Positions 1-39,828 of a stretch of DNA of 64,000 bases are shown here, piece by piece. Source of the DNA: Raillietiella orientalis (taxonomy: Eukaryota); contig JAYWIR010000040.1 in assembly GCA_036172245.1 (NCBI GenBank), forward strand, positions 1 through 64,000. The letters are read 5' to 3'. The first letter of the stretch is position 1. Each line of letters begins with the position of its first letter. Under the pieces are notes generated by a model. It saw only the letters and a list, made by a program, of their open reading frames with translations, was not told where the DNA came from and did not search any database. The translations under genes and the position numbers were made by a program.

Positions 1-792
1 CCCCGGGATGGGGTCCGCCCTATTGAATCCAGGAAGGGCTCGGAGTCCGTTCCTCTCACGCTTGGGGAGGGATCCCCCCCAGACGGGGGGATCTCACCTC
101 CCACCCTGGTTGTCTCCGAAGGGGAACCCCGAAGGGAATCTCGTTCCTCATTCTCTCCGGAGGGACGCGCCCCGCAATGTGGGGTGGTCCTCTCCATTTT
201 AACTTCTCCCAAGGGAACCCGGAAAGGATCCTCTTGTAGGACTTTCTTCTCCGGAGGGAACCTGCAAGGGAACCGCTCCTTTTCACTACTCTGAAGAGAA
301 CCCCGAAGGGACGCTTCCGAAACTCAGAAGGGGCGCTGCTGCTTCCCGAATGGGGATGTTTTCGCTTGCTTCCTTGCACTCTTCTGGAGAGGCGACGACT
401 CGGAGGGACCCCTCAACAGGGGGGGGGGGGTCCGCTCCTTTGAACAACTGGAGAGGTGCCCGTGAGGGCTCCTGCTACATCTTGAAACCGGAGGCGGTCC
501 CCCGGTGATGGGGGTCCGCTCTCCGTTGCACGACCGGAGGAGGAACTCCCCACTCCTTTATTCCTGGGAGGACCCGAAGGTCGACTCCCATTGTTCCGGC
601 CTTCATCGGGAGGCCTCCGGGCTTTATCCACCGCCAGGGCCATGCCCGAATGTCTCGGCCAACCAGCTCCATCTTGCAGGAGAAACTCGGAACCCAACGA
701 CGCAGTGGCGTCAGTTATCTGCCGAAGTATTCGAACCCGCGACGCATGGTGCCACGCGCGGAAGCCTTAACCACAAAGCCTCCGACGCGGGC
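1..792 (-). mobile_element. tRNA-derived SINE with multi-hairpin body, copy 1 (3' end runs off the window)
   Basis: Minus strand begins gcccgcgtcggaggctttgTGGTTAAGG...cgcgGGTTCGAATAC (Pol III A-box-like and B-box-like motifs in a tRNA-like head, about 722-792). The body aligns by eye with 27221-27911. Confidence 0.8.
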
Positions 793-3700
793 AGATTGTC
801 TTTTTTTTTTCGGGGAATCCCGTAAGTCAAAGTCCGCCAAGGAGCCTAAGGAGTCAAAGTAGTTTGAATCTCGTCATCAACGTCATTTCTCGGTTTTGTG
901 TTGATTTCCAATGGGAATGGGATTGGGATTTTGTTCCCGTGGGAATGGGATTTTGTTCTAAATTTGAAACTGAGCCACCTTGCTCATACTGTTCTCAATC
1001 GGCCATCGCTATAGGCGTTAGAGCAACACATTGGAATTTCTTTTTGCAACATCGTAGCCCACAGAATTTTTGTTTTGTTTGCCGCCACAACCGCATCCCC
1101 TAGCCAGGAATACGGACACTGATTATTCAATCTACTCACAATACGAAATGGAGAATGTGGTTCACCGCAATTGCTTTTCTTCTCGTACCATTTCCAAGCA
1201 CGAATCACATGTCAATGCGTCAAAAGACGCATTGCACTAACGAGCTAGCTTCCTTGGTATCCAGATGGATGCTCTCTCTGTGGACTTCTTAATCGAGAAT
1301 CTACCACCGTAGCTAAACGAGAAATTCTATTTCGAAAATGCTCTGCGGCATGCGGCACAGATTCGTGGCCATTCAACTCGATCCCAGTCAACCCTTTGAC
1401 TTCAACAACCTAAATGTCAACAGATGTCAACCTAAATCAACCAACAGATGACTGCAAAGAAACAAACCTTGTTGAGTGGCAACACCGAAACTTTCACATT
1501 CAAGTGACTGATTCTATTCCACACCGAGTACCCATTTGTTGGCTTTAGTTCCTTCCTTTTTCTAGAGCTGCCATCTGCCTTCTAATCATGCTCTTTACAT
1601 CCCATTTTGTACATATGTCTGCCTCAATACCGCTCACAGAATCAGAAAGCTCATGGTAAACACCATCTCCTCTTCACTGTCCATGTTCCATCAATCCACC
1701 CTCCACCAGATATTCCATCTTACTACATCCATCACCATCCACCTATAGAAACCTTAGTCCCCAGGACTTTGACTATCCCTACATAAAGGTCCTCTGTGCA
1801 TTTACAACTATAATGAAATCAAAAACCATTAGCATTAACTTTGATGACTCCTCAAATGCCCTTTCAATCAACATCTTCATTGCCCTATTTTTCATCATTA
1901 TCTAAAATCAATCCACATTTGTCCCATAAATATTTCCATCTGCTCATTTCCTTACATCCTTCTATTTTCACTTTCAATGCAAGCTTGCTGAAGCATTCAA
2001 GGTTCATATCACTTACCAATCTACATACCCTGACCCTGTGTCTTTTCTTCTACTTTTCGAAACCTTAACATCCTCATTCAACGGATATCCCTCTGAGAAT
2101 CAGTCACATGTGACCACATTACCTGGCATATATGTCCAAATTGTTACAATCTCAAATACCTCTAGTAATCTCATCACTATCCCTCTCAAGCATATCCCTA
2201 AAATCAGCCATAGTTCCCATCCAAACTTACAACTTCACTAACAGAACCCGCATGTACATGAAAATATCCATGCAATACCAATCCACCAACCATTCCTCCT
2301 TCACCAATGCACATCCATGATTCATCCTTCATTCTCTTAAGCACCATTCATACCCCTCTCTCCAACCTGTTTACGCATGCAATCAGCACTCAACATACAC
2401 TCTTCAGGGTATCTACATTGGTAAGTTGAGTGGAAAAGAAAGAATTGAAACGAGAGTATGGATTTCCGAGCACCCTTTGCACAAAAATAAAAACTTTCCA
2501 ATTTCCAATCATTGCATTTATTTTCTCAGAAAGCTTCTAACTCGTTTTCATCTTCTGCCAATTTCTTCCCAGGTGAGATTCACCCACAACTCAACTTTTC
2601 CTCAAACTCTCTTGATGAAACCACACTACACACCTTAGCAGCACCCCACCTCGACACAATTTTTCTCGTGGGAACAAATACTGTGGCGAAAAGTCCGTGT
2701 TTCCTTTTATTCAAAAAAGGTGTTCCTTTTTCGTCGACTTCCCTAATCATTACCATCCCCATTTGTCTCCTATTCACGAGAATCTTTCCTGCTTAAATTC
2801 TCCATTACATCACCTCTTTTTGTTGACGCAACATTCCATGGTCTTCACCCGATTGCTTGCCTTATCCGACTCCCTATTTCAAATTCTCACTTCACTGCCT
2901 CCATCTTCCTTTTGATACGGACACTTCACAGGTGTTCCGTACGGATTCCTCTTCCTCATCCTGTACCGACGATCATACCCTTCTGGCATATAGGGTGCAA
3001 ATAAATTTCCACTATATAGCAATAAGCAGCAATTCTTTCCGAGCAACCTCGCACGACACATGAAAATAATGACCGAGGAACGAATACCGTTCATTCGAAA
3101 TGGGACCATTCGTTCGTTCCGCTGCACCATCCTCAGTTTCGTGGCACACGGCCTATTGCTCCGATCAGTCACTATCAACGCTGTGCTGCATCCGCAACAC
3201 CGGAAGAAAAATCTCTCGCATGCCAACTAAATTGTGGTTCAATCAATCACGCTTGTTTGGAGCAAACCGATTTTTACCCATTATCACCGAATTATTAGAC
3301 AATGCTCCTACTGCTAAGCTTCATTGAACGAAAGAAATTCGAAAACTCTGCTGCTTTAGATAATGAGTTGACCATCCCATTTCTCCCTCAAGGAACTGTC
3401 TTCTATCCAAGTTTCACTCACTACTAATCTTTCTACAGAAGTGCAGACGTAATGATTGCACATCCATACTCTACATAGAATGCCAGACCAGTTCGGACTC
3501 GTCCTCTGCTAAAGCATCCACGCCTAAGCACAAATTTTCTCGGCTGCAGAGTCGACAGTGCAAATCCATGATTGCCAGCTCTTCCCTGACCCGCCTCGCG
3601 CTCATAGAAGAAACGCCCTTCCTTTTCAAGAGCACACAAACAATATTCAGCCCTATTCTTTTCCTACCCACTCTCCTACCTTCAGAACGAAACACGTGCA

Positions 3701-6890: not shown

Positions 6891-8201
6891 CTATTGAATG
6901 ATTTCGTATACTAATTTCACGGGTTTTGGTGGACTCGATGAAATCTGGAAGGTTTTTTCAGCCCATTCATAAAGCATATCTCCAATATCACGATTGGTAT
7001 ATAATGTCATAACGACTTCGCCGGCTTCCACTTTTTCACCGGTCTTTTTATTTAGATAAATTCCTGCCATATGATCAATTGCTTCTTCTTTTGTGTTTCT
7101 GCCCGCACCTAAACCAACTGCTAGTAATCCGAGTTCATTCGTATCAACTATTTCAACGTACCCTGTTGTTTTAGCTTGAATTTCAATTTTCTTTTCAGTA
7201 TTTAACATTAAATCAAGATTATCCACATGATCCAATAAAGATAAATCTCCACCTTGCTCTTTGATAAAGTTCATAAAATATTCCAGTGGTTCCTTTGTTT
7301 TCAATTTAGCTTCACATGCCTTAAATGCTTCATCCAAATCATTATATTTTTCACTCTGACACAAACTTAGTGCTGCTGATTCACACACAATACTATGCAA
7401 ATCTTCAGATCCATTCCCCTGTAAAGTTTTCACAACTTCATAGATTTCAATTGCGTTTCCAATTGCCCGACCCAACGGTTGATCCATATTAGTAATTTGA
7501 GCTGCAATTTTTTTATCAAAATGTTTCCCAATTCCAACCATGATCTGTGCCAGTTGTTTTGCTTCAGGGACTGATTTCATAAATGCCCCCTTTCCACATT
7601 TAACATCCAAAACAATTCCTTCACTACCTGTGGCAATTTTCTTACACATGATACTTGCAGCCATCAATGGAATTGAATTCACAGTTGCACTTGCATTTCT
7701 TAGAGCATAAATCTTTTTGTCTGCTGGAACAATGTTGCTTGATTGAGCCATAATTGACATATTCACTTTATTAATAATCCGTTTGAATTCTTCAAATGAA
7801 ATTTCTACTTGAAAACCTTTGAAGCTTTCTAATTTATCAACTGTTCCTCCAGTGTGGCCTAAACCACGGCCAGACATTTTAGTAACCTTTAAGCCAAAAC
7901 TAGCTACTAATGGTGCATAGATTAAACTAACTTTATCACCAACACCACCAGATGAATGCTTATCTGCCTTAAATCCTTCAATACTTGATAAATCATATGT
8001 TTCACCGGATGCAATCATTGCATGTGTTAAATAGGAGATTTCCTTGACTGACATGGATTGAAAATAAACAGCCATCAAAAATGCTGACATTTGATAGTCT
8101 GGAATTTCACCGTTTGTATATCCGTCGATAATATATTTTATTTCTTCCTCTGAAAGTTCTTGTCCATTCTTTTTCATTTCAATTAAATCCAACATTCTCA
8201 T
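6891..8201 (-). CDS. pdp: Pyrimidine-nucleoside / thymidine phosphorylase, bacterial (Mollicute/Firmicute-like), 436 aa
   Basis: Intact intronless ORF starting MRMLDLIEMKKNG (ATG at 8201). Family motifs DKHSSGGVGDK, KMSGRGLGHTGGTVDKLES, PADKKIYALR, SIMCKK, LDVKCGKGAFMK and TNMDQPLGRAIGNAIE are present. Much more AT-rich than the flanks. Confidence 0.95.
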   Translation of the reverse strand: MRMLDLIEMKKNGQELSEEEIKYIIDGYTNGEIPDYQMSAFLMAVYFQSMSVKEISYLTHAMIASGETYDLSSIEGFKADKHSSGGVGDKVSLIYAPLVASFGLKVTKMSGRGLGHTGGTVDKLESFKGFQVEISFEEFKRIINKVNMSIMAQSSNIVPADKKIYALRNASATVNSIPLMAASIMCKKIATGSEGIVLDVKCGKGAFMKSVPEAKQLAQIMVGIGKHFDKKIAAQITNMDQPLGRAIGNAIEIYEVVKTLQGNGSEDLHSIVCESAALSLCQSEKYNDLDEAFKACEAKLKTKEPLEYFMNFIKEQGGDLSLLDHVDNLDLMLNTEKKIEIQAKTTGYVEIVDTNELGLLAVGLGAGRNTKEEAIDHMAGIYLNKKTGEKVEAGEVVMTLYTNRDIGDMLYEWAEKTFQISSSPPKPVKLVYEIIQ

Positions 8202-8244
8202 TTTGAGGTTGCTTTTATTTTTGTAGCTGTTCACTTTTTTGTTT

Positions 8245-8715
8245 TTATTTTGCAATTCTATTTGACGTTGAACCTTGGTTCAGTCAACAGTGGAAGTTGC
8301 CCCTATCGTTCTTTGAATTGGTTTTTTTGGTTTGGCTCTGAACTGAAAAAATCCCTACAGCATTAGATCATTTCCCAGAACAATCAAAAGCAAACTTTAA
8401 TGCTAAATCTGTTTCCCCCATTGATGGACGAGCGTTTCGAATAATACGTTCACCCTTTTGATGACCAGAAGTGATTCCATCTAAATCATCATCAAATCCA
8501 CCTGCACTGCCAGTATTAACACTGCCTGAGTTTCCTGACATTCAAATTTGGTTTGATACTTTGTCCACGTCAGCAAGTGATTTTTTGAATATATTATCTT
8601 TCCGATTGAGAGTATCACCCAATTTTTCAGCTTTACTTGCAACCTCTGCAATTGATTGGTTCGAAATGATTTCTTTACTGATTTCTTCAATTCATCCTTT
8701 GAATCTTCGTGATTT
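8245..8715 (-). pseudogene. Bacterial-like hypothetical protein segment, open only under translation table 4 (TGA=Trp)
   Basis: Manual translation KSRRFKG[W]IEEISKEIISNQSIAEVASKAEKLGDTLNRKDNIFKKSLADVDKVSNQI[W]MSGNSG...CSGK[W]SNAV...FHC[W]LNQGSTSNRIAK-TAA. About 156 codons with four TGA and no TAA/TAG, ending 44 bp upstream of the pdp ATG. No clear start, so possibly frameshifted from the upstream ORF. Confidence 0.55.
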
Positions 8716-13229: not shown

Positions 13230-15295
13230 ATGGTTTCCGAACATCGCCTGAAGGACGTCGAAAAAGTTACCGCCTATTATTATCACGGTGGCCTCTCCTG
13301 AGGCCTATCCTTCGCTAGGGCTGATGACTTCGATCAATATCAAGGTGGCGATCTTTATCAAAAACGAGCTTGCCGCCACCATTCTGGAAACCTTCTGTCC
13401 CGTACCTGAAAGAGTCATCGCCTTACGGTTTGTTCTGGTCCGCAAATTTTTTCACCAGTTTCTGGTGAATGTTTACGGACCCCACCAAGACAAACCGTGG
13501 GACGGGCTTCGAGGTAAACAGGGCGAAGTCGTCAATCATTTCTCCGGACTCGTTGCGGGCAGGACGGTCAGGCTGGATCCGCTTGGGGATCCCCACGGGC
13601 GGGTACTTCAAGTACCTGGGCGTTCCGTTGGGGGACTTCTGCGCTGCAGAAGCCTGGTCCGACCGTCTCCAAAAGTGGAGTTGGCGATCGGCCCGTTTCG
13701 GGACGGCAAGTTTTACTTGCAGGAACGGGTGGCGGTGTGGAACGCTTTTGCGGCCCCCCTCCTCCGCCCCCTACTTTTTGTATGCCCCATACCTCCCCGA
13801 ATTCGACAAAGGACGAGGGGCCTCATTAGAAAAGCCCTCTGGGGCAATCGGAGGCCCCTCGTCCGTCTTAAAGACTTGTGCGCTCCACGCAGGGACGGTG
13901 GACTTGGTCTCCTGACGCTGGAGCGCATGAAGCGACAGCTCCGATTCCGCAAACTTGCATTTGTGGCAAAGTACTGGACCGCACCCTGGTGTGCACCTTC
14001 ACGAATCCTGGCTCAGAGGGCAACCGGCTGCCATGGATTGACCTCAATCCTAGTAGCCAACGACCGCAGCCTTAACCACTGTGGTTTTCAGCTGCGGGAA
14101 TTGGTTTCCCTGTTGAGAGACAATCCGTGGATCTCCTGCATCCCAGCGGACTGGATTACCTGGCTCCAGGAATCCGTTTCCGCATGGGCTAAAATCAACG
14201 GCTCCAGCGATGAGGACTTCTCCTGCCTCCGTAGAGGCAGGTACGCTGGTCAGCCACTGCAGGAGATCGTCAGCAACCCATGGAAGCTTCTGTGGGCCTC
14301 CTTTACCCCCCTTGCCCCAGTGCTGCCCTCCCTTAGGGAAGTTCGGGACAGCCAGCAGGAGGCATCGTGGGAAGTGTCCTGCCTCATCGGAGGCAGGAAA
14401 AAATTATTGAAGGCGTGGACGTCCCGGGAACTAGCGGAAGCTAGTACCCCGAGTGTCCCGCCAAATGGACTTTCACGCTGGGGCGCGCTGCTCGAAGTAC
14501 CTCCGGAGGAGGTAAAGTGGCCCCCGGTGTCGTGGAATAACGGCACCCTTCCCCTGCAGTGGCAGGAGACGGCGTTGCTTCTGCTCCATTGGGGACTGTT
14601 AAGCAGAGCGCGCTTGTCTCACTGGACACAAGGGAGTGTGGATGCTAGTTGCCCAGACTGTGGGGAAAGAGAAACCTTTGCTCACTTGATCATTGAGTGC
14701 GTTGCCCTTCGCGATATGTGGAACCGACACTCGTCGATCTTGAACATTCCGCGGCGCGACCCGAAGAACATTTTTCGACTCCTGATGCGGGACGCCTTGC
14801 CAGCTTCCGGGTGTGTAGCAGTGCTCTGTTGCGTACGCGGAATACTGGACAAGTGGACCGCGTCAAGGAGAGGACATGCCAGTCGGAATGCCATCCACTG
14901 GGCAACCATCTCCTTGGAGAAGGCCTGCCGTTGGCGCCGACTTGGAAAACACTTACAGGCATCCGTGACCGGATGCAGAGGCCTCCTCACGGCGTACCGG
15001 GATTCCTTCCCTTCCCTCCCCCTCCCAAAGAACATTGCCCCCCCAGGCGTTTTCTTGTTTTTGTTTATTTTCGGTTTTCTTCGCCCCTTCACCAGTGTAG
15101 AGGACCTTATCGTCCTTCGGGTCGGTAAGGACAAGTGCCTCAAGACATTCGGGCCATATGTCCCGACTGAAAAACAAGAACAACAACAACAACAAAAAAA
15201 AAAAAAACAAATCATGACTGTATTATGAAATTTTTTTTGTGTATTTCGAAAAATTTTAATAATAAAAGCCCCGGCTCACCGGGGTGAAAAACCCA
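13230..15295 (+). mobile_element. L1/Tx1-clade LINE with an internal deletion (APE fragment joined to the RT C-terminus and zf-RVT)
   Basis: APE-like KVAIFIK...ERVIAL...LVNVYGP, then in another frame GFEVNRAKS...FKYLGVPLG (late RT). Followed by LCAPRRDGGLGL and LLHWGL...CPDCGERETFAHLIIEC. Ends with AATAAA plus a hairpin at 15261-15290. Confidence 0.85.
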
Positions 15296-15539: not shown

Positions 15540-18210
15540 TCAAGGGAGAAGTGGAAGTGTTGGAGAAGAGGAATCTGGCAACAGATATGTTCTGTATCCA
15601 TTACGATGGTCGTGCCAGCCACTGGTCGGAAGACATCACTGAAGCCTTCCAGAGGCATTACGTGGAACACTTCCAACGCAGACATCTGTGCAAATTTTAC
15701 GAAAATAGCTTCCTGAAACATCTGGAGAAAAGAGTCGATGAAAAAAAGCGAAAGCTACGTTTAAGGATCTTCGCAAGGATGTGGCACAGGGTCCTGATAA
15801 TGTTCCCATCTCACACTATCAACGGTACCTGCATGCCTACAAGCATTTGTTCTACCAGCTGACGCTACGCATCATGGAAGACGGACGACTACTGCAATCC
15901 TTCTATGAGAGTAGGATGAGATTGTTGCCAAGAGGAGGCGAACTCACGCAGGTCACCCAATGGAGGCCAATCTCGATCCTCAACTTCGATGCCAAGTAAT
16001 TGGCGAACATACGGGCCAACCGCCTAGGCAAGGTCTTGCCGAGGCTGATCTCTCCGGTCCAAAAATGTGCGGTGCCTGGACGTCACATGTCGGCCAAGGT
16101 CAAGTGTGCCCAAGCTACCATTGGACTCAGCCGATATATCGGCGAGAACTTGGTGCTAGGCTTCACTGACACGGAGAAGGCTTTCGATACGGTGGACCAT
16201 GAGATGCTGCTGAAGATTCTAGAAAGACTGGACCTCCTGGAATACTTCGGCAACTTCGTGAAGATGATACTCGAACAACAACATTTCCACATCAAGATAA
16301 ACGGGGAAACGACAGCAGCTATTCGCATGGAACGCGAAGGCCATCAGGGCGATGCTGTAAGTCCGATGCTGTTCGTTATCTATATGGAGGCCGTCTCGTC
16401 GTTCATCGAGAGAACTGAGTACCTCCAAGGAATCAAAGTGGACATTGAAAGGTTCACCCATCTGGCCTACGCAGACGACCTTCTCTTCTTCTTGAAAAAG
16501 GAGAGAGACCAGCAAGGATTTCTGCATGTGGTGGAGCTTATGAGGGAAGGATTGGGCTTGAAGATCAACGCCCAGAAGAGCCAGCTTTTGCCCGTCGGAA
16601 TCCTGGACCTCTCTACACTCAAGAGGAGAGGATTCCGTACGGTGGATCGAATTACGTACCTGAGTGTCCACATCGGAGATGCTTCGGCACCCCAATTACT
16701 GTGGAAGGAAGTCCTGGGGAGAACAGCAGAGCAAGGAGCGAAGTACAGCCGCTCGGACTTCAATATGAAGAAGAGGGTCAATCTTTGGAACGGAGTTCTC
16801 CTTTCAAAGATACTCTTTGGAGCGGCCTTCTCTACAACATCCCAGAACACCGAGCGCGAAATGGAAAAGCTTTAGCGGAGAACCCACTGGGGAAAATGTC
16901 GACCGAGAGTACGCCTTAAGCCACTGTGTCGTCCTAAGGAAGAAGGAGGATCCGGTATGAAGTCGTCTGCATACGCCGTGGACGTCATGGACATGCGACA
17001 AATCCTGGAAATGTATTCCAACTGAGACGACTGGCCGTACGCCACGCACAGGGCGTACTCGCTGTTGCGGAACAACTCGAGAGGCCTGATGACTGCGCTG
17101 GTCGGCAGAGTTGGTGAATGGTCCACCATCGACCCGTCGTGTCGAAGGAAACAGGAACACGTCAAGAAACATTTCTTGAAAATGATCCCGAAGAGCAAGG
17201 AACTTTGGCAGGAGGAATCCATCCAGGTTATCCCGTGGATGCTCCCCGTGCAGGATGACACGAGGACCAGGATAAACCAGAGGACCGGAGTGACTTTTCG
17301 TGATAATGAATCATGGGCACGACGACGACACCTGCATCATTCTCGGGTGCTGCGTTATGTCGAAAGGATTTCTGGCAGCTTCGCATTCAGGACACGCGAA
17401 GTGTGGAAGAATCATCGCAACTTCGCATGGTCCAGAGTAACGAAGAGGAACATTCGCCAGCTATTAGGAGAAGAAGACTTCAGCGCCCTCCAAGATGCCG
17501 CCGACCGCTACGCTAGTAGTGGATTTAATCCACTGGCGATTGAGACGGTGCTCTAGAGGAGTGATTTAGCACCGGAAACTCAGGATAATCTCCTCAGGTT
17601 CTTCCATGGAGGTATCATGAGTGGTTCCAGGATGAAGCACTTCACGGGAATAGGAGACGAAGAAATCTGCAGGAAGTGTGGTGGAATAGATACAAGACGT
17701 CACGTACTGACTTCCCCCCCCTGCAAGCCTAGTGGACTACTCTGAAAAGGGCCATCGGGCTGTCCAGCTCCTCGACGATGGAGGTTTGGGCAGAGAAGTT
17801 CCAAAGAACTGGAACGGTTTCCCGCTATAACCCTATGGTAAGAGTGACGATCGCCGTTTTCATCACCGCCATTATTGTAAGGTGGTGGAAGATGAAGACC
17901 ACGAGGACCACAATATCTCCCCTAGGAAACCTGATAGGGCTCATCCAGAAAGAGATTGGCATTAAAAACTGCGGACCAGTGCAGGTCTGGAACTACCGAA
18001 ACATCCTGAAAAGGATTGGAGGAGGAACCCAGGCCCAAACGACACCCAGCTGATTAATGCAGCGAACTTTCCAGAGACCCCAAGAAGCAGACTTCAAGTG
18101 AACCCCAGCGATAGGAAGTGCAATCTTTGTGCAATTTGTATGCATGAGATTGTAGTGTGAAAGAGAAAATAAATTCACCCCAACCCTTGCAGGACTTGGG
18201 GAAACGTTAA
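15540..18210 (+). mobile_element. L1/Tx1-clade LINE ORF2 pseudogene with RT domain (second family)
   Basis: WRPISILNFDAK*LANIRANRL, DTEKAFDTVDH, QGDAVSPMLF, YADD, GLKINAQKS, LCRPKEEGG and a CRKCG knuckle. Multiple stops. AATAAA at 18168. Confidence 0.9.
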
Positions 18211-22090: not shown

Positions 22091-22574
22091 AGTTGGGCTG
22101 CGTGGGAAGTGTGTGGCTTGCGAGACACGTGCTTCTTTCGAGGTTGCAGACATATCCACGGGGATGTTCTCCGGGAAGAGGGTGGTGTTGGGATGGGAAA
22201 TGGGGGAAGGATGGGTGGGGGATTCGCAACGGATACCCATATTTGGAGGGGGGGAGCTAAGTAGAGGGAAGGTCAGGTGTAGGGTGGGTGATTGGGTCGA
22301 GTGGACGCACCAGCTTAAATGCGACGGAGGATTCCCGCAACTTGAAGTCTGGTTTCCGGGCAGTGCAAGAAGCATCGCAGGGATTTGTGGAGCAGGGACA
22401 GAGCAAAGCTCCTAGCGATCGCTTCCTGTGTTGCAGCTTTAGGATTCTTCTTGATACTGAAAAGAAGGAGTGGGTGGGGGCGGCGCCACGCTGCATGCAG
22501 GACGGCGACCAGCTTCAACGAGCAACCACTCTTTCGGAAGCGTTCTGCTAGACAGACGCGGCCAAAAAGAATTG

Positions 22575-22692
22575 GTCCACGGCACCCGGGGTTCCCAGGC
22601 GGTCGCCCATCCAAGTACTGATCGGGCCCGACGCTGCTTAACTTCGCCGATCGAACGAGAGACGGTGCTTTCAGCGTGGTGTGGCCGTGAAC
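22575..22692 (-). rRNA. 5S rRNA
   Basis: 118 nt GTTCACGGCCACACCACGCTGAAAGCACC...AGTTAAGCAGCG (box A)...TACTTGGATGGGCG (box C)...GCCGTGGAC. Termini pair, and a T5 terminator follows. Confidence 0.95.
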
Positions 22693-23553
22693 GGAGGCCT
22701 TTCCCTACAAGGCACTTTTTGTGACACTTTCGCAAGGCAGCTCCCCGCCTACGCGACCGCGTGCACTTCTCCAGTGCGAACTTTTCCTGACGCGCGTTCC
22801 TCGTTGCATCGCATTCTCTTCGCCCTGCTCCGCTACTGTTCCACCTGAGCCTCCAGGCTTCGTTGGCCAACAGAAGGCTTGTTATTCTCTGAGGTGTAGC
22901 AGCTGCGACGGGACGTGGGAAGTGCTGGAACTCCCTCGCTCGCCGCAGAGGATCATCGAGCAGGGAATGCTCTCTCACATGCTCTCTCTCATGCCAAACG
23001 CGTGCGTCCGCTTTGGCCGATCGTAGAACGGAATGTGCAGGAGGCTCTTGGAGACCACTCGGCAAGGTGAGGGGAGGATGCAACTGGAGTCTGATAGGAG
23101 TGCGGGCATGTGTCAGACGAATCTGACTCCCGGCAGATTGCCTTCAGCCACGAAGAATCTTCGGATGCATCTTGAAGACACCGGCTTACATCGTTCTATA
23201 CAATGAAGAAGCGTTCCTCTGTACGGCAAGCCACGCGTGCTCCACTTGTTGAGAACGGTCAATCAGCCACTAAGCTGACGCGAGCAGCTGCTAGGCCCGT
23301 GAGGGAAGGCCGGAGTACCGGAAGGGCACTAAGCTGACTGTCGGATGCCCTCTTGACTCTGGTTGTTGCTCTGCACGCCTGTCGAGATGCCAGCGGATCT
23401 GCAGGCCGCACTGCGGACCAGGAGACAACCTTCAAGCCACCGTCTTGAGCATGGTTGACCTCTCTTACCCGCTGCGAGCATGAAGAGGCATGGTGCGGCG
23501 TGCACCAGATGGAAACACCAAGGAAAACCTCACGTGGGACCACGACGTGCCTG
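22693..23553. repeat. 5S upstream flank repeat (near-identical copy at 38547-39407; diverged inverted copy at 56605-57251)
   Basis: Direct sequence identity seen by eye. Confidence 0.9.
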
Positions 23554-25305: not shown

Positions 25306-27220
25306 GAGCACTGTAATGAAGGCATGAGAGCGCTTGGGTTGCCGTCGCTATCGATAGTGCTCGAGGGCATTTTCTTTTTTTGCGTGTTTTTGGACTAGCC
25401 TCACGAATGTCGTTTTGTGACCTCACATTAGCCAGCCCATTTGTTCCCGTAGTTCTGAGGCGACTCAAGAGTCATTCAACGACCCGATTGAGAGTAATTA
25501 ACCTAGACTGACCTAACTAATTTTATTTCAGCTGAACTGACTTGGAAAGCAAAAGGGAAAGCAGGATCATCTTGCTCACTGACGCAGGTCAGTAAAATTC
25601 TTTCGAAAAACTCGAATGCGTACACCGTGGTACACGTAGCAAGTTCATGCTGACGAGTTTTTTTGTCGCAGCAGGGGATGCACATACCAGCTTCCTCGGG
25701 AAACAACGTACTGCCCAACTGATGCTGTGCAAACGCGATTCACGCGAAAGTCACGCACTCGAGGATTCGGAATCGCGAAACTGGCGTTGCCTTCGTCACA
25801 TAAAGCGCGCAATCATCCGAACGGTCGCGAAAGCAATGACGTGCACACATGTACCATGTACTCGTGCATCGTTCAGGAAACAAGGAACGCGTGCTTTTGG
25901 TGGAGCGTCTGATCCACCATCTCATAGGGTACTGACTGACGACCAATCTATCCCTTGCCCAATGCACGGCTTCAGACTCTTTTCACTGCACTGCAGTGCT
26001 TGTATGACATCACGACCGCAGCATTGTACCTGCTACGTAACGATGCTTGTTGCGTAGCAACAGAGATTTGTTCTCACGAAAGTTATCTGTGCTGACGTGT
26101 ACTTGGTTAGCTCGCAGATTTCGTTGGAAGAATCTCAACCCGAAGTATCGTACTGTTTCCAAATCCAGTGCGGAGCACACTGACTTTTGAATCGGGAACC
26201 TCGTACCGAATACATAATCCAATCCGGAAGTAACTCCTGTGAAGCCGGAGCTCGGGATTCGCTTCCGGAAGTCAATCCGCAAGCAATTCGGATTGTTTTT
26301 GAATCCGAGGCCCAGGAAAGTAGTGAGGCCCGAAGATGTTTGGCGGTCTCCGGAACTGGAGAGCCCGAAATCCCGTGGCAGCAGACCTGGATCCGTGGAC
26401 CGCGCTCCCCATTACAGCGGAAGCCGATCTGCCGTTCCTGGCTCCCTGTCCCGTCACCGTGGACACCTCTGTCTCGACCCAATGTGGATATGGACACGGA
26501 AGATGGCAGGTGTCCATGCTCCGGATTGGGGTCTGATGCAAGGCCATGGTCGTCCGGACGAGGTTCCGCTGGCGGAGGGCGCACTGGTGCAACAAGCTTT
26601 GCTGCCCACGCAAGACAAGCTGCGTGAAAGCTCTGCAGACAACTGTAGCACTTCGGCTGCAGCAAGTGGAAGCTGCGGGACAGCAGCTAGCAGCTTCGAC
26701 TCATCAGCAAGCTTCGACGACTGCAGCAGCGCGGGTGGAGGCTCTTTTCTTCGATATAATGCCCTGCCATCCCGCATGGCTGCCTCCAAGAGGGGCATCG
26801 GCCGCTTCTTGAGGCGCATGCTTTCGTGCCGAACTCCTTGGCCTCGCCTCGACCTCCTTGGTCTTTGGCAGCCGCGCGGGGCCATGCGAAAGAATGAAGT
26901 GAATCCTCGGATTTCCAGTTGAACAACTTCCCAGTGTGGGCTGGGAAGTTGTTCGGAAGGGATGCGCGTCTTCACGCGAGGTTTCGAGCGTCCCGACTTA
27001 GTCTGATGAGCGTCGCCTCCCTTGCCGCAGCTGCCGAATGGAACGCGACGACAGCTGCCAAATGGCAAGACGAGAGTTCTTCCCGACAGCGGCAGCCGCC
27101 AAACTCCGCGCCAGCTAAGCGGTTGCCGAGCTGGAGAACGCCACCGGAGCGCGCGTTCCGGGACCATCGGATTGCTCCGAAGGGAAAGGTCGAGGAGAAC
27201 GTGCGGTTGGCACCCTTTGT

Positions 27221-27916
27221 TTGTTTGTTTTTTAGTCTCCGAAGGGGGGACCCCAAAGGGAATCTCCTTCCTCATTCTCACCGGAGGGAAACCCCCCGTA
27301 ATGGGGGTTGGTCCTCTCCATTTCAACTTCTCCCAAGGGAACCCGGAAAGGAACCGCTCGTAGGAATTTCTTCTCTGGAGGGAACTCGCAAGGGAACCGC
27401 TCCTGTTCACTCCTCTGAAGAGAACCCCGAAGGGACGCTTCCGAAACTCAGAAGGGGCTCTGCAGCTTCCCGCAGGGAATCGCTCTTGCTTGCTTCCTTG
27501 TGCACACTCTGTGAAGAGGCGACGACTCGGAGGGAGCCCCCAACAGGGGGGTCCGCTCCCTTGAACAACTGGAGAGGTAACCATGATGGCTCCTGCTCCA
27601 TCTTAAAACCGGAGGCGCTCCCCCGGTGACGGGGGTCCGCTCTCCGTTGCACGACCAGAGGGGGAACCCTCCACTCCTTTATTCCTGGGAGGACCCGAAG
27701 GTCGACTCCCATTGTTCCGGCCTTCATCGGGAGGCCGCCGGCTTTATCCACCGCCGGGGCCACGTCCGAATGTCTCTGTCAACCAGCGCCGTTGCAGGAG
27801 AAACTCGGAACCCAAACGGCGCAGTGGCGTCAGTTATCTACAGAAGTATTCGAACCCGCGACTCATGGCACCACACACGGAGGCCTTAACCATAAAGCCT
27901 CCGACGCGGGTCCTTT
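27221..27916 (-). mobile_element. tRNA-derived SINE with multi-hairpin body, complete copy 2
   Basis: tRNA-like head at 27841-27911 with A/B boxes, 3' tail AAAAAACAAACAA, and an 11 bp TSD GCACCCTTTGT at 27210-27220 and 27917-27927. Confidence 0.9.
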
Positions 27917-28749
27917 GCACCCTTTGTGTGGTCGTTCCGGCGCCGACCCTTCCATGCACGTGAGAGACAGAACTTTTCCCTCCCCGGAGTTTCCAGGATA
28001 TTCGGCTCGACGAAACCTCGCACCCGGTAAACTGTCATCCCCGAACTTTCCGCCGTGCGGGACGGATGGATTCGTTCCCTCGCCTGTTGCTTGTGTCGGA
28101 TGTCGTGCAAGGACTGCGCGACAGTCTGTCTGCACCGCTGCTGCTTTCCGAGGACAAATATAGGGGCTGCAAACGCTACCGCTAAAAACGCAGGCACGAG
28201 TAAAGATGACAAAAATGAAGAGGGAGAAAAAAAGGGACTTTGCGTCCTGAGTGAGGGATTGACATGGAGGAATTTCCGCTTGCTCTTTCTGCATTTCTTG
28301 CATCCCGAGCACTTGTAGCCGACGGAGGTTTCGAGCAGCCCTTCGCTTGTACTCTTTGTCCCCTTATCTGATATCTTTGTCAGCAGGTAGTTTGTTCATT
28401 CCTGAAGAAACATCCCGGCGCAACCGCGTAAGGAACATCGCAGGTTCCGCGCTGTCCGTCCCAACACGAGGACAAAAGGACTGCCTTCCGACATGGTTCG
28501 GACACGCAGCTCCAGCATTGCTGCAACGGCCTGCAAGGAAGTGAACACCGAGCAACCCGGTCGGAGGATGTGACGCTGCTCTCAACGCCGAATAACAAAG
28601 AAACGAAAATACAGGGGTCGGGCAGGAAGCAAGACAAAAGCGGAAGCAGCCAGGCAGCGCCGCGAAAGGAATTGCAGAGAGTTCACGATATTTCCTAGCT
28701 TTTCGCGACCTCATTCCAGGAAAGGGTGCAGGGAACCACCCCGGTATTT

Positions 28750-32984: not shown

Positions 32985-33507
32985 CTGATCTTTTCTTTAG
33001 ATGACCCAACGTCTTACACAGCCCGCAGTATTTTTCCCTCCCCACGCGCCAGACGCCAACGAGTCCGTCGTTGATTTTCAGTTTGTGGAAAAGTTCAATG
33101 TTTTCGCGGAGAGTTACCCGCGCGGCGACTCGCCCACTAAATGCGCCTCTGAAAGTGGAGGCGTTGGCGTAAATGTTCACGAATTTGTTTAATTCCGTGC
33201 GGATGGCTTCCTCGCCCATCCGCAGAGTTGCTTAGGTTAGGTGGATCGCTATCGAGTGACTCACCGTGTGCGGTAGGAGATTTCGTCCCTCGAATGGGAC
33301 GGGCGTGCAGAGCAGTTTGTGCGTGAGCTCTGCATTCCTGCAGATGAGCTCCGCGAACTGTCCGCCGCTCCGAACGGAGAGGCACAAAATCTCCTCATCA
33401 ACTATATCCATCTTTCGGATGGCATTACCAAATTTCCGCGTGGTTATTTCATAAAAGAGAGCAGGGTTGTAGCCCTCCTTTATGTAGGCCTTGATTTCTG
33501 CTGCCAC
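32985..33507 (-). pseudogene. L1/Tx1-type ORF1 fragment (RRM-like region plus CCHC knuckle)
   Basis: Two in-frame ORFs split by one stop, ending REKYCGLCKTLGHLKK (CX2CX4H knuckle), the layout of Tx1/L1 ORF1p. Confidence 0.6.
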
Positions 33508-34990
33508 TTCTGCGGCGATCGGCCCGTTTCAAGGTAGCAGGTTTTTCCTGCCAAAACGGGCCCCGATATGGGACGCGTTGGCTGCCCCTCTCCTCCGTTC
33601 CCTACTTTTTGTTTGTCCCCCCACCAAAGAGACAAAAAAGAGGACGAAGAACCTCTTAAGGATTGCCCTGTGGGGCAGAGGGAGGGCCCGAGTCCTGCTT
33701 GTGGACTTGAGCGCTCCGCGTCGGGACGGCGGTCTCGGCCTCCTGACGCTGGAGCGGTTGGAGCTCCAGCTCCAGTTTCGGTTACTCGCCCAAGTGCCGA
33801 AGTATTGGAACACCGGTTGGTGCGACCCTGCACGCCTCCTCGTCAAGCAGGCCACCGGCAAGATGCGACTGTCGTCCTTCTTTGCACTCCGTCGTCGCCG
33901 CCAAGTCGGCCACTGCGGTTTGCAGCTGCGGAGTGGCCGATCTGATGAGAAACAATGCAGGATGGCTCTCTTGTCGCCCTGTGAACGGAACCGCCTGGCT
34001 GCAGGAGACCGTATACACGTGGACGAGGAGCAGCGAGCAACGCGCCGAACAAGATCGCAGACAACTGTTTGCGCGCATTGACCGCCTCACGCTCTGGGAG
34101 ATCCTGGAGAACCTCCAAAAACGAGCGTGGGGAAGGAAAACTCCCATCACTGCAGTGCTTCCATCCATCATGGAACATCTGGGCAGCGACATCATGGCCA
34201 AATGGGAGGTTTTTGCTAGAATCTCCGGAACGGAGAAAAAAATCGGGGAGTGGAAAACGGGTCAGCTAATCAACGCAGCGTCCCCTATTACCACCCCTAT
34301 TAAACTTTTGCGCTTGGGCGAGCTGCTGGATGTTTTGCCGGAACATCTGAAGTGGCCCCTGATGTTGATAGACACCCGTACCCTCCCACTGAAGAGGCAA
34401 GAGTCGGCGCACATAGTGCTGTACTGGGGACTCCCGTGCAACGCCCGCCGACTCCACTGGACCTTGAAGCGGTCGACCCCAATTGCATAAAGTGTAAGGA
34501 GCATGAGTCCCTTCCTCACCTGTTAATGGATTGTCTTGCTCTATGGCACCTTTGGAACCTCTTTGCAGTAGCCATCGGAATCCCCTGCGGCAACCCCAGG
34601 GACGCAATTAAAGCCCTCTTCGTTTGCGACGCCCTCCGGCCTGCGGCCTCGTTAGCAGCCCTGTGCTGCCTACGCGAGGTCATCGTCTCATGGAGCAAGG
34701 CAACGGGAGGACCCCGCGATAAGAGTGCCGTCCAGTGCGCCGCCGAATTCATGAGGATGGCGTCAGGATGAGCCCACCCAGACACGCACATCAAAGAAGA
34801 GCTTGCCGGCATCCTAGAAAGGATGTAACGCCCCCCAACAGACTGTGATTGCTTCCCGTGTCCCCCAGATGTCTTTTTCTATTTACTTTTTAATTTTTTG
34901 TTTTGTCCCTACCCCCTTCGCTGTTGTGGTGGACCGTACCGGTCTGCGAACCGGTCCCGGCAGACTCGCAATAGTTTGTTTGCGCGTGGC
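33508..34990 (+). mobile_element. L1/Tx1-clade LINE ORF2 3' fragment, close relative of 28750-29900
   Basis: LSAPRRDGGLGLLTLER, KKIGEWKTGQL, LYWGLPCNARRLHW, CIKCKEHESLPHLLMDC. Confidence 0.85.
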
Positions 34991-37675: not shown

Positions 37676-38428
37676 GCAGCGAGGTTACGATGGTAGGCGT
37701 TTCCTAGAGGGAGACCTTCACTCCCGCATAATGCTTGCGGAATACGAAGAGTGTTCACCACAGAGGATCGGTCCTTCGTGCTCAGTTAGAAAACATTTGC
37801 GTGCGGTGCTTCGGATCGTGACATCATTGCGGCGCTGGCGGGTCACTAACGTGCACACCCTCTGCAGGAGAGGAAGCCTCTTGAAAAGCGGCACGCGCAT
37901 CTTACAAAAAACCGGAAATCTCGCACAAACCGGAAATCGGCAGAAGATTCGCAGGACCCTGGTTTGTAGGTCAAGTAAACGTGTGCAGCGCGACGAGTCA
38001 CCTCAAAAATAGGTGCCCGAAAAGAGAGTGCCACGGCTTCAATCAGCTTTGGCATATCAGAAACGCATACCCTGCGTTCGCGCAAGAGGCCTCCCGCACG
38101 GCGCCGATACAGTCTGCGATCCTCTACCAAATCGGAGGTCTCGCTGGTAGAAGCTTCCAGTTCCCAGTCTCCTTGGCAGCAGCGTTCGGAAGCACAAAAG
38201 GTGAACTTGATCGCGAGCGGCCTCGGGGTTCATCTGCAAGAACGCGCTCCAAACGGCAAGCAAGCACAGAAAGCTCCTGCGCAAACGAAGCGCCTAAGGC
38301 ACGTTGTGCAGCAGCATCATCCTTAAAGGAATGCAAGGCGACCTGCTACTCCTGTAGCCACTGACTCCGGAGACACGCAATCACGCAAAAGTGGGAATTT
38401 TCTCCAGAGATGCGGGCGCAAAAGTTTC

Positions 38429-38546
38429 GTTCACGGCACCCGGGGTTCCCAGGCGGTCGCCCATCCAAGTACTGATCGGGCCCGACGCTGCTTAACTTCG
38501 CCGATCGAACGAGAGACGGTGCTTTCAGCGTGGTGTGGCCGTGAAC
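38429..38546 (-). rRNA. 5S rRNA
   Basis: Identical to 22575-22692 except one base at the 3' end (GAAC vs GGAC). T4 downstream. Confidence 0.95.
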
Positions 38547-39708: not shown

Positions 39709-39828
39709 GTGGACGGCCACGTCTCTCTGAAAGCATCGTCTCTCTCTTCCGATCGGCGAAGTTAAGCAACATCGGGTGCGGTTAGTACTTGGATGGGCGT
39801 ACGCCTGCTAACTCCGGGCGCCGTGACC
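39709..39828 (+). pseudogene. Divergent 5S rRNA copy (pseudogene or variant)
   Basis: gtggacggccac...ctgaaagcatcgtctct...cgatcggcgaagttaagcaac...gtacttggatgggcg...gccgtgacc followed by T6. Many mismatches in the helices. Confidence 0.8.

What the first reader, a model, noticed from the sequence alone, without database searches (positions are those of the whole stretch)
1..792. tRNA-headed SINE whose body is an array of 10-12 related bulged hairpins
Seen: downstream of the tRNA-like head, the RNA-sense (minus) strand repeats roughly every 45 nt a stem-loop with a GGAG(C/A)GG-type 5' arm and a CCCUCC(G/A)G-type 3' arm. Examples are UGGGAG-uc-GACC-UUCG-GGUC-CUCCCA, GGAGCGGUUCCC-UUGC-AGGUUCCCUCCGG and CCC-UUCG-GGG. 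Several carry cUUCGg tetraloops. Against the second copy (27221-27916), loops change while stems are kept, including a compensatory swap (GCCC-ucac-GGGC vs GCCA-uca-UGGU). Copy 1 has extra 3' hairpins that copy 2 lacks. Inference: this is a long, structurally constrained Pol III RNA with a modular, variable number of possible protein-binding sites (a sponge or scaffold, or multivalent LINE-protein recruitment). That architecture is unusual for a SINE.
Basis: partly seen in the sequence, partly recalled or inferred. Interest (0 to 1): 0.8.

Follow-up and report, generated by a model that had tools for sequence, protein, structure and literature searches.

The report
Long SINE built from repeated hairpins
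This is a mobile, non-coding "SINE" element of an animal (probably arthropod) genome whose unusually long body is a row of duplicated small hairpin units; it is a real and tidy example of a known kind of genomic parasite, not a demonstrated new functional RNA.

Summary
The features described are in the sequence. Window 1-792 (minus strand, cut by the window edge) and 27221-27916 are two copies, 88.5% identical, of a non-coding retroposon. Copy 2 has an A-rich tail and a perfect 11-bp target-site duplication. 115 contigs of one public run and a 955-nt contig of another carry the same element. The 5' end has Pol III A- and B-box-like motifs and aligns collinearly with a tRNA, but no tRNA finder calls a cloverleaf. 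From about nt 200 the body is a degenerate tandem array of 84-93-nt repeats. Each repeat holds a GGAG...CUCC-clamped bulged hairpin and a small CCC-UUCG-GGG hairpin. Copy 1 has at least 103 nt more of the array than copy 2.

The hairpins exceed chance and were better formed in the progenitor: undoing each copy's private mutations lowers the local folding energy far beyond controls. cUUCGg occurs 5 times on the sense strand and 0 times on the antisense.

The claimed stem conservation between the two copies is not supported: about half of the changed pairs are broken and none is doubly compensated. Folding energy shows no strand preference, and no expression data were found.

Verdict: a long, quasi-oligomeric SINE. 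A role of the hairpins in its own retroposition is plausible; a sponge or scaffold role is unsupported.

The parts
1..792 (-). SINE copy 1. Its 5' end is at 792; its 3' part runs off the window start.
   Evidence: Contigs of run X1 diverge just beyond 792. The X2 contig continues 163 nt beyond position 1.
728..792 (-). Head. A-box-like AGGCTTTGTGG at 771-781 and B-box GGTTCGAATAC at 728-738. The first 42 nt (751-792) fold as one long hairpin.
   Evidence: B-box 9-mer found only in the two copies. 38/55 collinear identities to a bacterial tRNA, matched by 1 of 200 shuffled heads. No cloverleaf called. Hairpin of -28.2 kcal/mol.
550..615 (-). 66-nt stretch identical in both copies (sense 178-243). 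It includes the GGGAG-UC-GACC-UUCG-GGUC-CUCCC hairpin at 566-589.
   Evidence: Longest identical run; p about 0.012 by random placement of the differences. Highest contig depth in X1, and no listed variant between 541 and 636 (102 rows not shown).
489..525 (-). GGAG...CUCC bulged hairpin module (sense 268-304), -27.3 kcal/mol.
   Evidence: (inner p 0.002).
445..484 (-). Hairpin (sense 309-348) holding GCCC-UCAC-GGGC. Copy 2 has the register-shifted GCCA-UCA-UGGU.
401..439 (-). GGAG-C-GGACCCC...GGGGUCC-CUCC module (sense 354-392).
   Evidence: p 0.018; best model hit, 37.4 bits.
281..363 (-). Tandem repeat unit (sense 430-512), related to the next two units.
   Evidence: Smith-Waterman z 6.0 and 7.8; 0 of 200 shuffles as good. 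Alignment A2.
197..280 (-). Tandem repeat unit (sense 513-596) with module GGAGCGGUUCCC-UUGC-AGGUUCCCUCC at 252-280.
   Evidence: Smith-Waterman z 13.5 against the next unit..
104..196 (-). Tandem repeat unit (sense 597-689) with a module at 158-196 and CCC-UUCG-GGG at about 127-136. Copy 2 ends at the 3' border of this unit.
   Evidence: p 0.024.
1..103 (-). Extra 3' units absent from copy 2: a module at 65-102 (-30.3 kcal/mol) and a further module cut at position 1.
   Evidence: p 0.001. Loose ends of X1 contigs continue the cut hairpin.
27221..27916 (-). SINE copy 2, complete (696 nt), with tail AAAAAACAAACAA at 27221-27233.
27210..27220 (.). Target-site duplication GCACCCTTTGT (3' side of the element).
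   Evidence: Read directly; identical 11-mer at 27917-27927.
27917..27927 (.). Target-site duplication GCACCCTTTGT (5' side of the element).

Best explanation
The feature is a multi-copy, non-autonomous retroposon of the SINE kind.

SHOWN.
- It has a fixed 5' end with Pol III A- and B-box-like motifs in a tRNA-collinear head.
- It has no coding capacity.
- Copy 2 has an A-rich tail and an 11-bp target-site duplication. These are the marks of LINE-mediated, target-primed reverse transcription.
- From about nt 200 to the tail the body is a degenerate tandem array of at least six 84-93-nt repeats. Each repeat holds one GGAG-N-GG...CC-CUCC clamped, bulged hairpin and one small CCC-UUCG-GGG hairpin.
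- Copies differ in the number of repeats at the 3' side.
- The hairpins were better formed in the progenitor than in today's decayed copies.

INFERRED.
- The array grew by duplication of a hairpin-bearing 3' module. Candidate routes are slippage or template switching during reverse transcription, or unequal exchange.
- The hairpins were kept in the source genes because they serve the element's own life cycle. Most likely they act as repeated recognition or loading sites for the partner LINE's reverse transcriptase or RNA-binding protein, as in 'stringent' LINE/SINE pairs, and/or they stabilise a long Pol III transcript.
- The genomic copies themselves decay neutrally.

My odds: about 0.9 that it is such a retroposon, and about 0.4 that the hairpins are selected for retroposition.
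For: - Two copies, 88.5% identical over 686 nt.
- Perfect 11-bp direct repeat flanking copy 2, and an A-rich tail.
- 115 contigs of run X1 match the element (positions 1-804); only two of the listed pieces lie in the flank (1095-1488). One 955-nt contig of run X2 covers 1-777 plus 163 nt more. Contigs lose similarity right at 792.
- 0 Pfam families in the 4 frames of 100 aa or more that overlap the copies.
- B-box 9-mer present only in the 2 copies.
- Head against 36 bacterial tRNAs: 38/55 collinear identities, matched by 1 of 200 shuffled heads.
- Internal repeats: Smith-Waterman z 13.5, 7.8 and 6.0, with 0 of 200 shuffles as good.
- Copy 2 ends exactly at a repeat border, and copy 1 goes on.
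- X1 contigs have joints that skip 76-222 nt.
- Anchored inner stems: Fisher p about 5e-7 in each copy.
- Reversion of 22 private changes in copy 1: local energy -257.2 to -299.0 kcal/mol, against controls of -267.8 +/- 7.0 (0 of 300 as low).
- Reversion of 48 changes in copy 2: -271.1 to -301.7, against -266.0 +/- 9.1 (0 of 300).
- CTTCGG 5 (sense) against 0 (antisense).
- Stem-loops at the 3' ends of stringent LINE/SINE pairs are described in PMC3747384 (passages read).
Against: - No partner LINE with the same module is seen. The covariance model of the module finds nothing outside the two copies (best E 0.37). The 3' end of the LINE fragment at 15000-15172 shares only 12-14-nt matches, which 10 of 300 shuffles equal.
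- No covariation between copies or between aligned units.
- Sense and antisense strands fold equally well, so the energy data cannot tell RNA structure from a DNA-level palindrome.
- Absence of TTTT in copy 1 is not significant: 2296 of 5000 shuffles also lack it.
- tRNA finders see no cloverleaf.
- At 696 to at least 940 nt the element is at or above the usual SINE size. PMC3531059 gives <700 bp in one definition, <1 kb in another, and 75-662 nt for 175 families.
- Pol III transcription is not shown.
Confidence: 0.6

Rival explanations
1. Neutral by-product. One palindromic unit, for example a LINE-tail stem-loop, was amplified by slippage or unequal exchange. The hairpins are inherited from that unit and from the G+C-rich, GGAG/CTCC-rich composition, and have no selected role as an array.
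For: - Both strands fold equally well.
- No compensatory changes between copies or between aligned units.
- A LINE coding region at 13.4-14.6 kb has an equal or stronger local-folding residual: z -3.76, against -2.9 and -3.29 for the SINE windows, out of 318 windows.
- The number of hairpins of -10 kcal/mol or better is not above shuffles in copy 1: 12 against 11.7.
- Tandem internal repeats of variable number arise in other SINEs with no known function (PMC2996970 and PMC3531059, passages read).
Against: - The units have diverged to 52-67% mean column identity, yet 5 of 8 units have p<0.05 and one more p 0.054 for inner pairing, using different stem sequences and registers.
- The UUCG enrichment is strand-specific, 5 against 0, which a DNA palindrome does not predict.
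- The progenitor was markedly better paired.
Confidence: 0.25
2. 5'-truncated or internally deleted LINE, or another non-autonomous retroelement transcribed by Pol II. On this reading the A/B-box-like motifs are chance and the hairpin array is a LINE 3' UTR.
For: - No tRNA cloverleaf.
- SINEBase states that A/B boxes are only an indication, not a proof (PMC3531059, section 'Definitions' read).
- The length is at or above the SINE range.
- A LINE 3' UTR in this window also carries a cUUCGg hairpin before an A-rich tail.
Against: - Both copies and the X1 contigs share the same 5' end at 792 / 27910. Truncated LINEs have ragged 5' ends.
- The head is collinear with a tRNA from D-loop to T-arm; only 1 of 200 shuffled heads matches as well.
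- The box spacing, 43 nt start to start, is tRNA-like.
- No LINE coding remnant is present.
Confidence: 0.08
3. Host-function RNA. On this reading a long Pol III RNA has multivalent hairpins that bind a cellular protein, and the genomic copies are retropseudogenes or exapted loci.
For: - Repeated, near-identical clamp motif with a conserved bulge.
- Progenitor hairpins were intact.
- A 66-nt segment is invariant between the copies.
- A plant SINE RNA is reported to bind a dsRNA-binding protein (PMC2408557, abstract in search listing only).
Against: - Copies carry target-site duplications and decay like neutral insertions: about 11% divergence, with stems broken as often as kept.
- Many diverged copies exist in other data sets. 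Of 115 contigs, 52 are under 90% alike.
- No Rfam family matches.
- No expression evidence of any kind.
Confidence: 0.05

Closest known systems
tRNA-class SINEs with a body of unknown or LINE-derived origin (SINEBase definition; most common structure: tRNA head + body + tail, PMC3531059)
   Same: 5' head with A/B boxes collinear with a tRNA. Non-coding body. Simple A-rich tail. Target-site duplication. Many dispersed, diverged copies.
   Different: 696 to at least 940 nt, against 75-662 nt for the 175 families of 2012. No cloverleaf is detectable. The host's own tRNAs were not available, so the criterion of 60% identity over 60 nt could not be applied.
[quoted passage not shown]
   Same: The SINE body is made of a degenerate motif repeated in tandem, and the number of repeats differs between variants.
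   Different: The unit here is 84-93 nt (two hairpins of about 25-40 nt) and is built around self-complementary GGAG...CUCC and UUCG stem-loops. I saw no CHRS sequence, so homology was not tested.
Entamoeba histolytica EhSINE1 (500-600 bp, one to four internal 26-27-nt repeats; PMC2996970, passages read)
   Same: A long SINE whose length range is due to a variable number of internal tandem repeats. A/B boxes are only approximate. Strand slippage or unequal crossing-over is proposed as the origin.
   Different: Different host group and composition. The EhSINE1 repeats are internal, between conserved ends, and are not described as hairpins. Here the array reaches the 3' end and varies there.
Stringent-type LINE/SINE pairs with a 3' stem-loop recognised by the LINE reverse transcriptase (e.g. 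eel UnaL2/UnaSINE1; PMC3747384, passages read)
   Same: A stem-loop lies directly upstream of a short repeat or A-rich tail. Copy 2 ends in a hairpin of about -16.5 kcal/mol 3 nt before the tail. This is the working model for what the modules do.
   Different: That case has one hairpin shared with an identified LINE. Here there are about a dozen hairpins and no identified partner.
SVA (SINE-VNTR-Alu) composite retrotransposons (PMC10681720, abstract in search listing only)
   Same: A non-autonomous, LINE-mobilised element with a G+C-rich block of variable-number tandem repeats.
   Different: From my own knowledge, SVA is a Pol II-transcribed, hominid-specific composite without a tRNA-type head. 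No sequence relation is expected.

Membership tests
SINE (SINEBase definitions, PMC3531059) | Short (<1 kb; elsewhere <700 bp) interspersed, non-tandem repeat | tested here: inconclusive
   Copy 2 is 696 nt with its tail. Copy 1 is at least 792 nt. The X2 contig has about 940 nt of element-like sequence. The element is interspersed, with copies 27 kb apart in different flanks. It is under 1 kb as far as seen, but at or above 700.
SINE (SINEBase definitions, PMC3531059) | [quoted passage not shown] | not testable with these tools
   No genome is held. There are 2 copies in 64 kb, 115 matching contigs in run X1, and a depth-15 contig in a 62-Mb run X2. These suggest high copy number but give no count.
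SINE (SINEBase definitions, PMC3531059) | At least 60% identity to a tRNA, 5S or 7SL RNA over at least 60 nt | tested here: inconclusive
   Against 36 tRNAs of one bacterium, the best match is 38/55 (69%) over 55 columns, matched by 1 of 200 shuffled heads. Host tRNAs were not available. Rfam tRNA, 5S and 7SL give no hit on 1-900 at E<=10.
SINE (SINEBase definitions, PMC3531059) | Internal Pol III promoter (boxes A and B) and Pol III transcription | tested here: inconclusive
   B box GGTTCGAATAC matches 8 of 9 specified positions of GGTTCGANNCC. The A-box-like AGGCTTTGTGG matches 7 of 9 of TGGCNNAGTGG. Consensus sequences are as printed in PMC2996970. The motifs start 43 nt apart. Transcription was not tested, and no RNA run was listed.
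SINE (SINEBase definitions, PMC3531059) | Non-autonomous; retroposed by a LINE (tail of simple repeats, target-site duplication) | tested here: met
   No Pfam match in the overlapping frames. Tail AAAAAACAAACAA and a perfect 11-bp duplication for copy 2. The 3' end of copy 1 lies outside the window.
tRNA gene / tRNA pseudogene | Cloverleaf recognised by tRNA detectors | tested here: not met
   ARAGORN default and -ps find 0 in either head. At an 80% threshold there is one poor model, in copy 1 only, that uses flanking bases. Rfam RF00005 is absent at E<=10.
Quasi-oligomeric / VNTR-bearing SINEs (CHRS, EhSINE1) | Body motif repeated in tandem, with repeat number varying among copies | tested here: met
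   Repeats at sense 430-512, 513-596 and 597-689 (z 6-13.5), and weaker ones at 262-429 and 690-792. Copy 2 stops at a repeat border, and copy 1 has at least 103 nt more. X1 contigs have joints skipping 76-222 nt.
Stringent LINE/SINE pair | 3' region shared with a partner LINE | tested here: inconclusive
   Only two LINE fragments were available. There is no significant similarity: 10 of 300 shuffles reach the score, and the module model has no hit in them at E<1.
Structured RNA under selection (covariation standard) | Compensatory base changes that preserve predicted pairs | tested here: not met
   Between the copies: 0 pairs changed on both sides, with 17 kept and 21 broken, or 15 kept and 29 broken. 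In the unit alignment A5: 0 covarying pairs, and the outer stem is invariant. Only two copies were available, and they are expected to decay neutrally, so this is a weak test.
Any Rfam 15 family | Match at the gathering score | tested here: not met
   Only 5S rRNA elsewhere in the window. On 1-900 the best weak hits are NrsZ (E 0.026) and mir-3689 (E 0.28), both far below their cut-offs.

The most novel reading that the evidence does not exclude
The element represents a distinct SINE body type. It would be a 0.7-1 kb Pol III transcript whose 3' two-thirds is an expandable array of GGAG/CUCC-clamped, single-bulge hairpins and cUUCGg hairpins. These would act as multivalent binding sites for the partner LINE's protein or a host RNA-binding protein, so that the number of modules tunes retroposition success. 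That would be 'avidity' parasitism of the LINE machinery, not mimicry of a single tail.
Probability: 0.15. Interest if true: 0.6.

Novelty: new member of a known kind. Interest (0 to 1): 0.3.

Why it matters
If the modules are selected binding sites, this family would give a natural dosage series for how SINE RNAs compete for LINE proteins, because copies carry different numbers of the same hairpin. That question has so far been studied mostly with single 3' stem-loops or poly(A) tails.

As it stands, the value is mainly descriptive. It is a clean, long, quasi-oligomeric SINE with a readable insertion signature in a poorly sampled, probably arthropod, genome. It is useful for repeat annotation of that genome and its relatives. 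It also shows that hairpin-rich, G+C-rich repeats can look like structured RNA genes without being so.

Tried and rejected
- Whole-genome collection of copies: no genome is held.
- Public collections: two 22-mers of the element gave 0 hits in metagenome contigs. A 20-mer of the head gave 2 hits in prokaryote genomes. Both lie outside tRNA genes in unrelated bacterial sequence and are chance matches.
- Sequencing runs: only two small-share holders, and no RNA holder listed. Expression is therefore untested.
- Earlier notes of this scan: nothing on this genome or sequence. A word search gave only unrelated prokaryotic tRNA-linked repeats.
- TRF finds no tandem repeat in either copy. The units are too diverged, so Smith-Waterman with shuffles was used instead.
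- MAFFT alignment of the hairpin units: the first try misaligned the 5' arms. The second (A5) gives an invariant outer stem and no countable covariation.
- The covariance model R1 only recovers its own training units and a few weak units inside the copies.
- Partner LINE: the 3' end of the LINE fragment at 13252-15228 gives only short matches. A search with its ORF found 1 unnamed relative.
- Protein-coding reading of the element: 0 Pfam families. The 382-aa open frame at 26454-27602 runs through the tail into the flank, so I take it as chance.
- Host identification: the Atlas look-up of the phosphorylase gave only bacterial clusters. The homology search pointed to Spiroplasma and not to the host.
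- Pol III terminator argument: the lack of TTTT is not significant.
- Variant positions from the runs as a test of stem conservation: of 40 listed rows, 27 fall in positions that are unpaired in copy 1's own fold. I rejected this as evidence, because copy 1's private mutations are unpaired by construction. Among the 12 rows specific to X2, 7 are unpaired and 5 paired (1 kept, 4 broken).
- Dfam, Repbase and SINEBase could not be searched. Five literature searches found no description of a SINE with a GGAG/CUCC or UUCG hairpin array. This shows only that none stands in the open-access library under those words.
Full report
WHAT IS THERE

The window is eukaryotic. No prokaryote-type genome is held for it. 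It carries four 5S rRNA genes plus one weak one, two LINE reverse-transcriptase fragments and little else that Pfam recognises. By my recollection the 5S sequence is of the metazoan/arthropod type. That is recall, not a test.

On the minus strand, window 1-792 and 27221-27916 are two copies of one element. They are 88.5% identical over 686 nt (alignment; repeat families D2, D4 and D5). A sensitive BLAST finds no third copy or fragment in the 64 kb.

INSERTION SIGNATURE

Copy 2 is complete. Read in the RNA sense, it starts just after GCACCCTTTGT (27917-27927). It ends in ...CCUUCGGAGACU followed by AAAAAACAAACAA (27221-27233) and the same 11-mer (27210-27220). That is a perfect target-site duplication with an A-rich simple tail, the mark of LINE-mediated target-primed reverse transcription.

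Copy 1 shares the same 5' start (GCCCGCG... at 792). It runs off the window after at least 103 nt of sequence that copy 2 lacks.

OTHER DATA SETS

Only two public runs held a small share of the words.
- Laid at 80% likeness or more, run X1 gives 115 contigs that fall almost wholly on 1-804.
- Their likeness classes are 4 (99+), 17 (95-99), 42 (90-95) and 52 (under 90).
- Those contigs lose similarity exactly beyond 792.
- Run X2 gives one 955-nt contig that covers 1-777 and continues 163 nt past the window start.
- So the family is multi-copy in at least two further data sets, its 5' end is fixed, and some versions are about 940 nt or longer.
- X1 contigs also show joints that skip 76, 77, 108, 119, 168, 185 and 222 nt within the 3' half. 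Some have other letters in between. The block structure therefore differs among copies.
- Contigs cannot give copy numbers. No RNA run was listed, so expression is untested.

THE HEAD

- ARAGORN (default and -ps) and the Rfam tRNA model (E up to 10) see no tRNA.
- Lowering ARAGORN's threshold to 80% gives one poor model, in copy 1 only, that borrows flanking bases. I disregard it.
- The head has GGTTCGAATAC at sense 55-65. This matches 8 of 9 specified B-box positions. The 9-mer GGTTCGAAT occurs only in the two copies in this window.
- It has AGGCTTTGTGG at sense 12-22, which matches 7 of 9 A-box positions. The consensus sequences are as printed in PMC2996970.
- Against 36 distinct tRNAs of one bacterial genome, the head aligns collinearly from the D-loop (GTGGTTAAGGC) to the T-arm. 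The match is 38 identities in 55 columns, and 1 of 200 shuffled heads scores as well. This holds for both copies.
- I read this as a decayed tRNA-derived Pol III promoter region. SINEBase warns that boxes alone are an indication, not proof (PMC3531059, Definitions section).
- The first 42 nt also fold as one long hairpin of -28 kcal/mol. Its four differences between the copies are all one-sided transitions that keep pairing on the sense strand. Four events are too few to weigh.

THE BODY

TRF sees nothing, but Smith-Waterman comparison with shuffles shows internal repeats.
- Sense 513-596 against 597-689: z 13.5.
- Sense 430-512 against those two units: z 6.0 and 7.8. For all three comparisons, 0 of 200 shuffles are as good.
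- Weaker but significant links tie 262-345, 346-429, 690-771 and 772-792 together (z 4.1-6.0).
- The body from about 200 to the tail is therefore a degenerate array of at least six units of 84-93 nt.
- Each unit holds (a) a hairpin clamped by GGAG...CUCC, usually with one bulged base after GGAG and a G+C-rich inner stem such as GGACCCC/GGGGUCC, and (b) a small CCC-UUCG-GGG-type hairpin.
- Copy 1 has 8 clean GGAG...CTCC hairpins of -5 to -30 kcal/mol and a ninth cut by the window edge. The loose ends of X1 contigs complete that ninth hairpin.
- Copy 2 ends exactly at a unit border.
The true period is the two-hairpin unit, not 45 nt.

IS IT MORE THAN CHANCE?

- Global folding is only modestly better than shuffles: z -1.9 and -2.4 with 20 shuffles each.
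- Local folding (span 50) gives z -2.7 to -4.9 with 200 dinucleotide shuffles. It does so on both strands alike.
- The plain number of hairpins at -10 kcal/mol or better is not above shuffles in copy 1: 12 against 11.7.
- Against the rest of the window, after regression on G+C, SINE windows rank 1st (plus strand) and 3rd (minus strand) of 318. A LINE coding stretch at 13.4-14.6 kb scores as high.
- A cleaner test defines units only by the GGAG and CTCC anchors and asks whether the inner part pairs better than its own shuffles. In copy 1, 5 of 8 units have p<0.05, one has p 0.054 and two fail. The Fisher combined p is about 5e-7 in each copy.

The strongest result is a polarised one.
- At 22 sites copy 1 differs from a base shared by copy 2 and the runs. 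Setting these back lowers copy 1's local energy from -257.2 to -299.0 kcal/mol. The same kinds of substitution at random sites give -267.8 +/- 7.0, and 0 of 300 reach the observed value.
- The mirror test on copy 2 (48 sites) gives -271.1 to -301.7 against -266.0 +/- 9.1, again 0 of 300.
- One search listed only 40 of 142 variant rows, so some of the 48 sites may be mis-polarised.
- The conclusion is that the progenitor was much better paired than today's copies. The hairpins are a real feature of the source element.

RNA OR DNA, AND WHICH STRAND?

Energies do not tell. The reverted sequences fold at -297 and -302 kcal/mol in the sense direction and at -292 and -295 in the antisense direction.

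The one strand-specific signal is the loop sequence. CTTCGG occurs 5 times on the sense strand of copy 1 (3 times in copy 2) and never on the antisense. TTCGG occurs 8 times against 0. Shuffles average 0.23, and 0 of 5000 reach 5. Three of the five sit on proper stems. From general knowledge, cUUCGg is the classic extra-stable RNA tetraloop and has no such standing in DNA. This favours an RNA-level hairpin in the orientation set by the head. The absence of TTTT in copy 1 fits Pol III read-through but is not significant, since 2296 of 5000 shuffles also lack it.

THE CLAIMED STEM CONSERVATION

RNAalifold on the pair looks favourable: 19 substitutions in 372 paired columns against 52 in 313 unpaired. 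However, it chooses pairs that suit both sequences.

With a structure from one copy alone the picture changes.
- The substitution rates are 0.093 against 0.122, and 0.107 against 0.101.
- Changed pairs are kept/broken 17/21 and 15/29.
- No pair is changed on both sides.

The GCCC-UCAC-GGGC versus GCCA-UCA-UGGU example exists. It is four clustered substitutions that leave a weaker hairpin in a shifted register.

A column-wise count on ten aligned units gives no covariation, because the outer stem never varies and the inner stems differ in register.

Dispersed copies are expected to decay neutrally. These negative results therefore argue against constraint on the copies. They say little about the source genes.

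A 66-nt run (sense 178-243) is identical in both copies (p about 0.012). It has the highest contig depth in X1 and no listed variant. It may be a conserved core, and I leave that as a lead.

HOW IT MOST LIKELY WORKS

Shown: it is a LINE-dependent, non-coding retroposon with a Pol III-type head and an expandable array of hairpin units that were intact in the progenitor.

Inferred:
- The array arose by duplication of a 3' hairpin-bearing unit. Candidate routes are slippage or template switching in reverse transcription, or unequal exchange. EhSINE1's authors propose the same for their repeats (PMC2996970).
- The array was kept because the hairpins help the RNA's own propagation, by recognition by the partner LINE's proteins as in stringent LINE/SINE pairs (PMC3747384), and/or by stabilising the RNA.

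No partner was found. The module model hits nothing outside the two copies (best E 0.37). The LINE fragment ending at about 15172, which itself has a cUUCGg hairpin before an (AAC)n/A tail, shares only 12-14-nt matches that 10 of 300 shuffles equal.

COMPARISON WITH WHAT IS KNOWN

The element meets the retroposition and non-autonomy marks of a SINE. The copy-number, length and tRNA-identity criteria could not be settled with these tools.

Tandemly repeated body motifs of variable number are already described. Examples are the CHRS 'quasioligomer', with a ~20-nt motif repeated more than 10 times (PMC3531059), and EhSINE1, with one to four 26-27-nt repeats (PMC2996970). The 175 families in the 2012 SINEBase survey span 75-662 nt, so this element is at the long end or beyond.

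Two things I did not find in print are the self-complementary, clamp-and-bulge design of the unit and the sense-strand UUCG enrichment. That rests on five word searches. Dfam, Repbase and SINEBase were not available.

I therefore file it as a new member of a known kind, of modest interest. About 15% remains for the bolder reading that module number tunes multivalent recruitment of the LINE machinery.

Noticed in passing
window 6891-8279 (-), with 8245-8715 (-): An intact, intron-less thymidine/pyrimidine-nucleoside phosphorylase ORF, open under the standard code. It is 77% identical to that of Spiroplasma eriocheiris and 81% to an unnamed contig protein. The next best hits are other Spiroplasma. 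A short DnaB_C-like fragment lies beside it. Both sit in a 37-39% G+C stretch between 50-58% G+C, repeat-rich eukaryotic sequence. This looks like Spiroplasma DNA transferred into an arthropod host genome, or an assembly chimera.
   Followed up: partly
window 22574-22692 (-), 38428-38546 (-), 40151-40269 (+), 57252-57370 (+), 39709-39829 (+, weak): Four full 5S rRNA genes and one degenerate copy are scattered on both strands over 35 kb instead of forming a tandem array. Two share about 300 nt at 96% identity including flanks, at 22554-22853 and 38408-38707.
   Followed up: no
window 13252-15228 (+) and 16000-17556 (+): Two LINE fragments lie on the same strand. The first has a zf-RVT-like C-terminal ORF. 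It ends in a 3' UTR with a long cUUCGg-capped hairpin (about 15100-15135) and an (AAC)n/A-rich tail (about 15170-15213). The second has an RVT_1 domain. Only one unnamed relative was found for the first ORF.
   Followed up: partly
window 13400-14600 and 33200-34000: These stretches have the strongest G+C-corrected local folding in the window, z down to -3.76. They share a 106-nt repeat at 76% identity, 13683-13788 and 33514-33619. The first lies inside the LINE ORF.
   Followed up: no
window 799-811: A run of T (A on the element's sense strand) lies 8 nt upstream of copy 1's 5' end. It may be the tail of an older insertion or an A-rich target. The 3' junction of copy 1 is outside the window, so its target-site duplication cannot be read.
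   Followed up: no
window 26454-27602 (-): A 382-aa stop-free frame runs through the 3' half of copy 2, its tail and the flank. It has no Pfam match. I take it as a chance open frame in G+C-rich sequence.
   Followed up: partly
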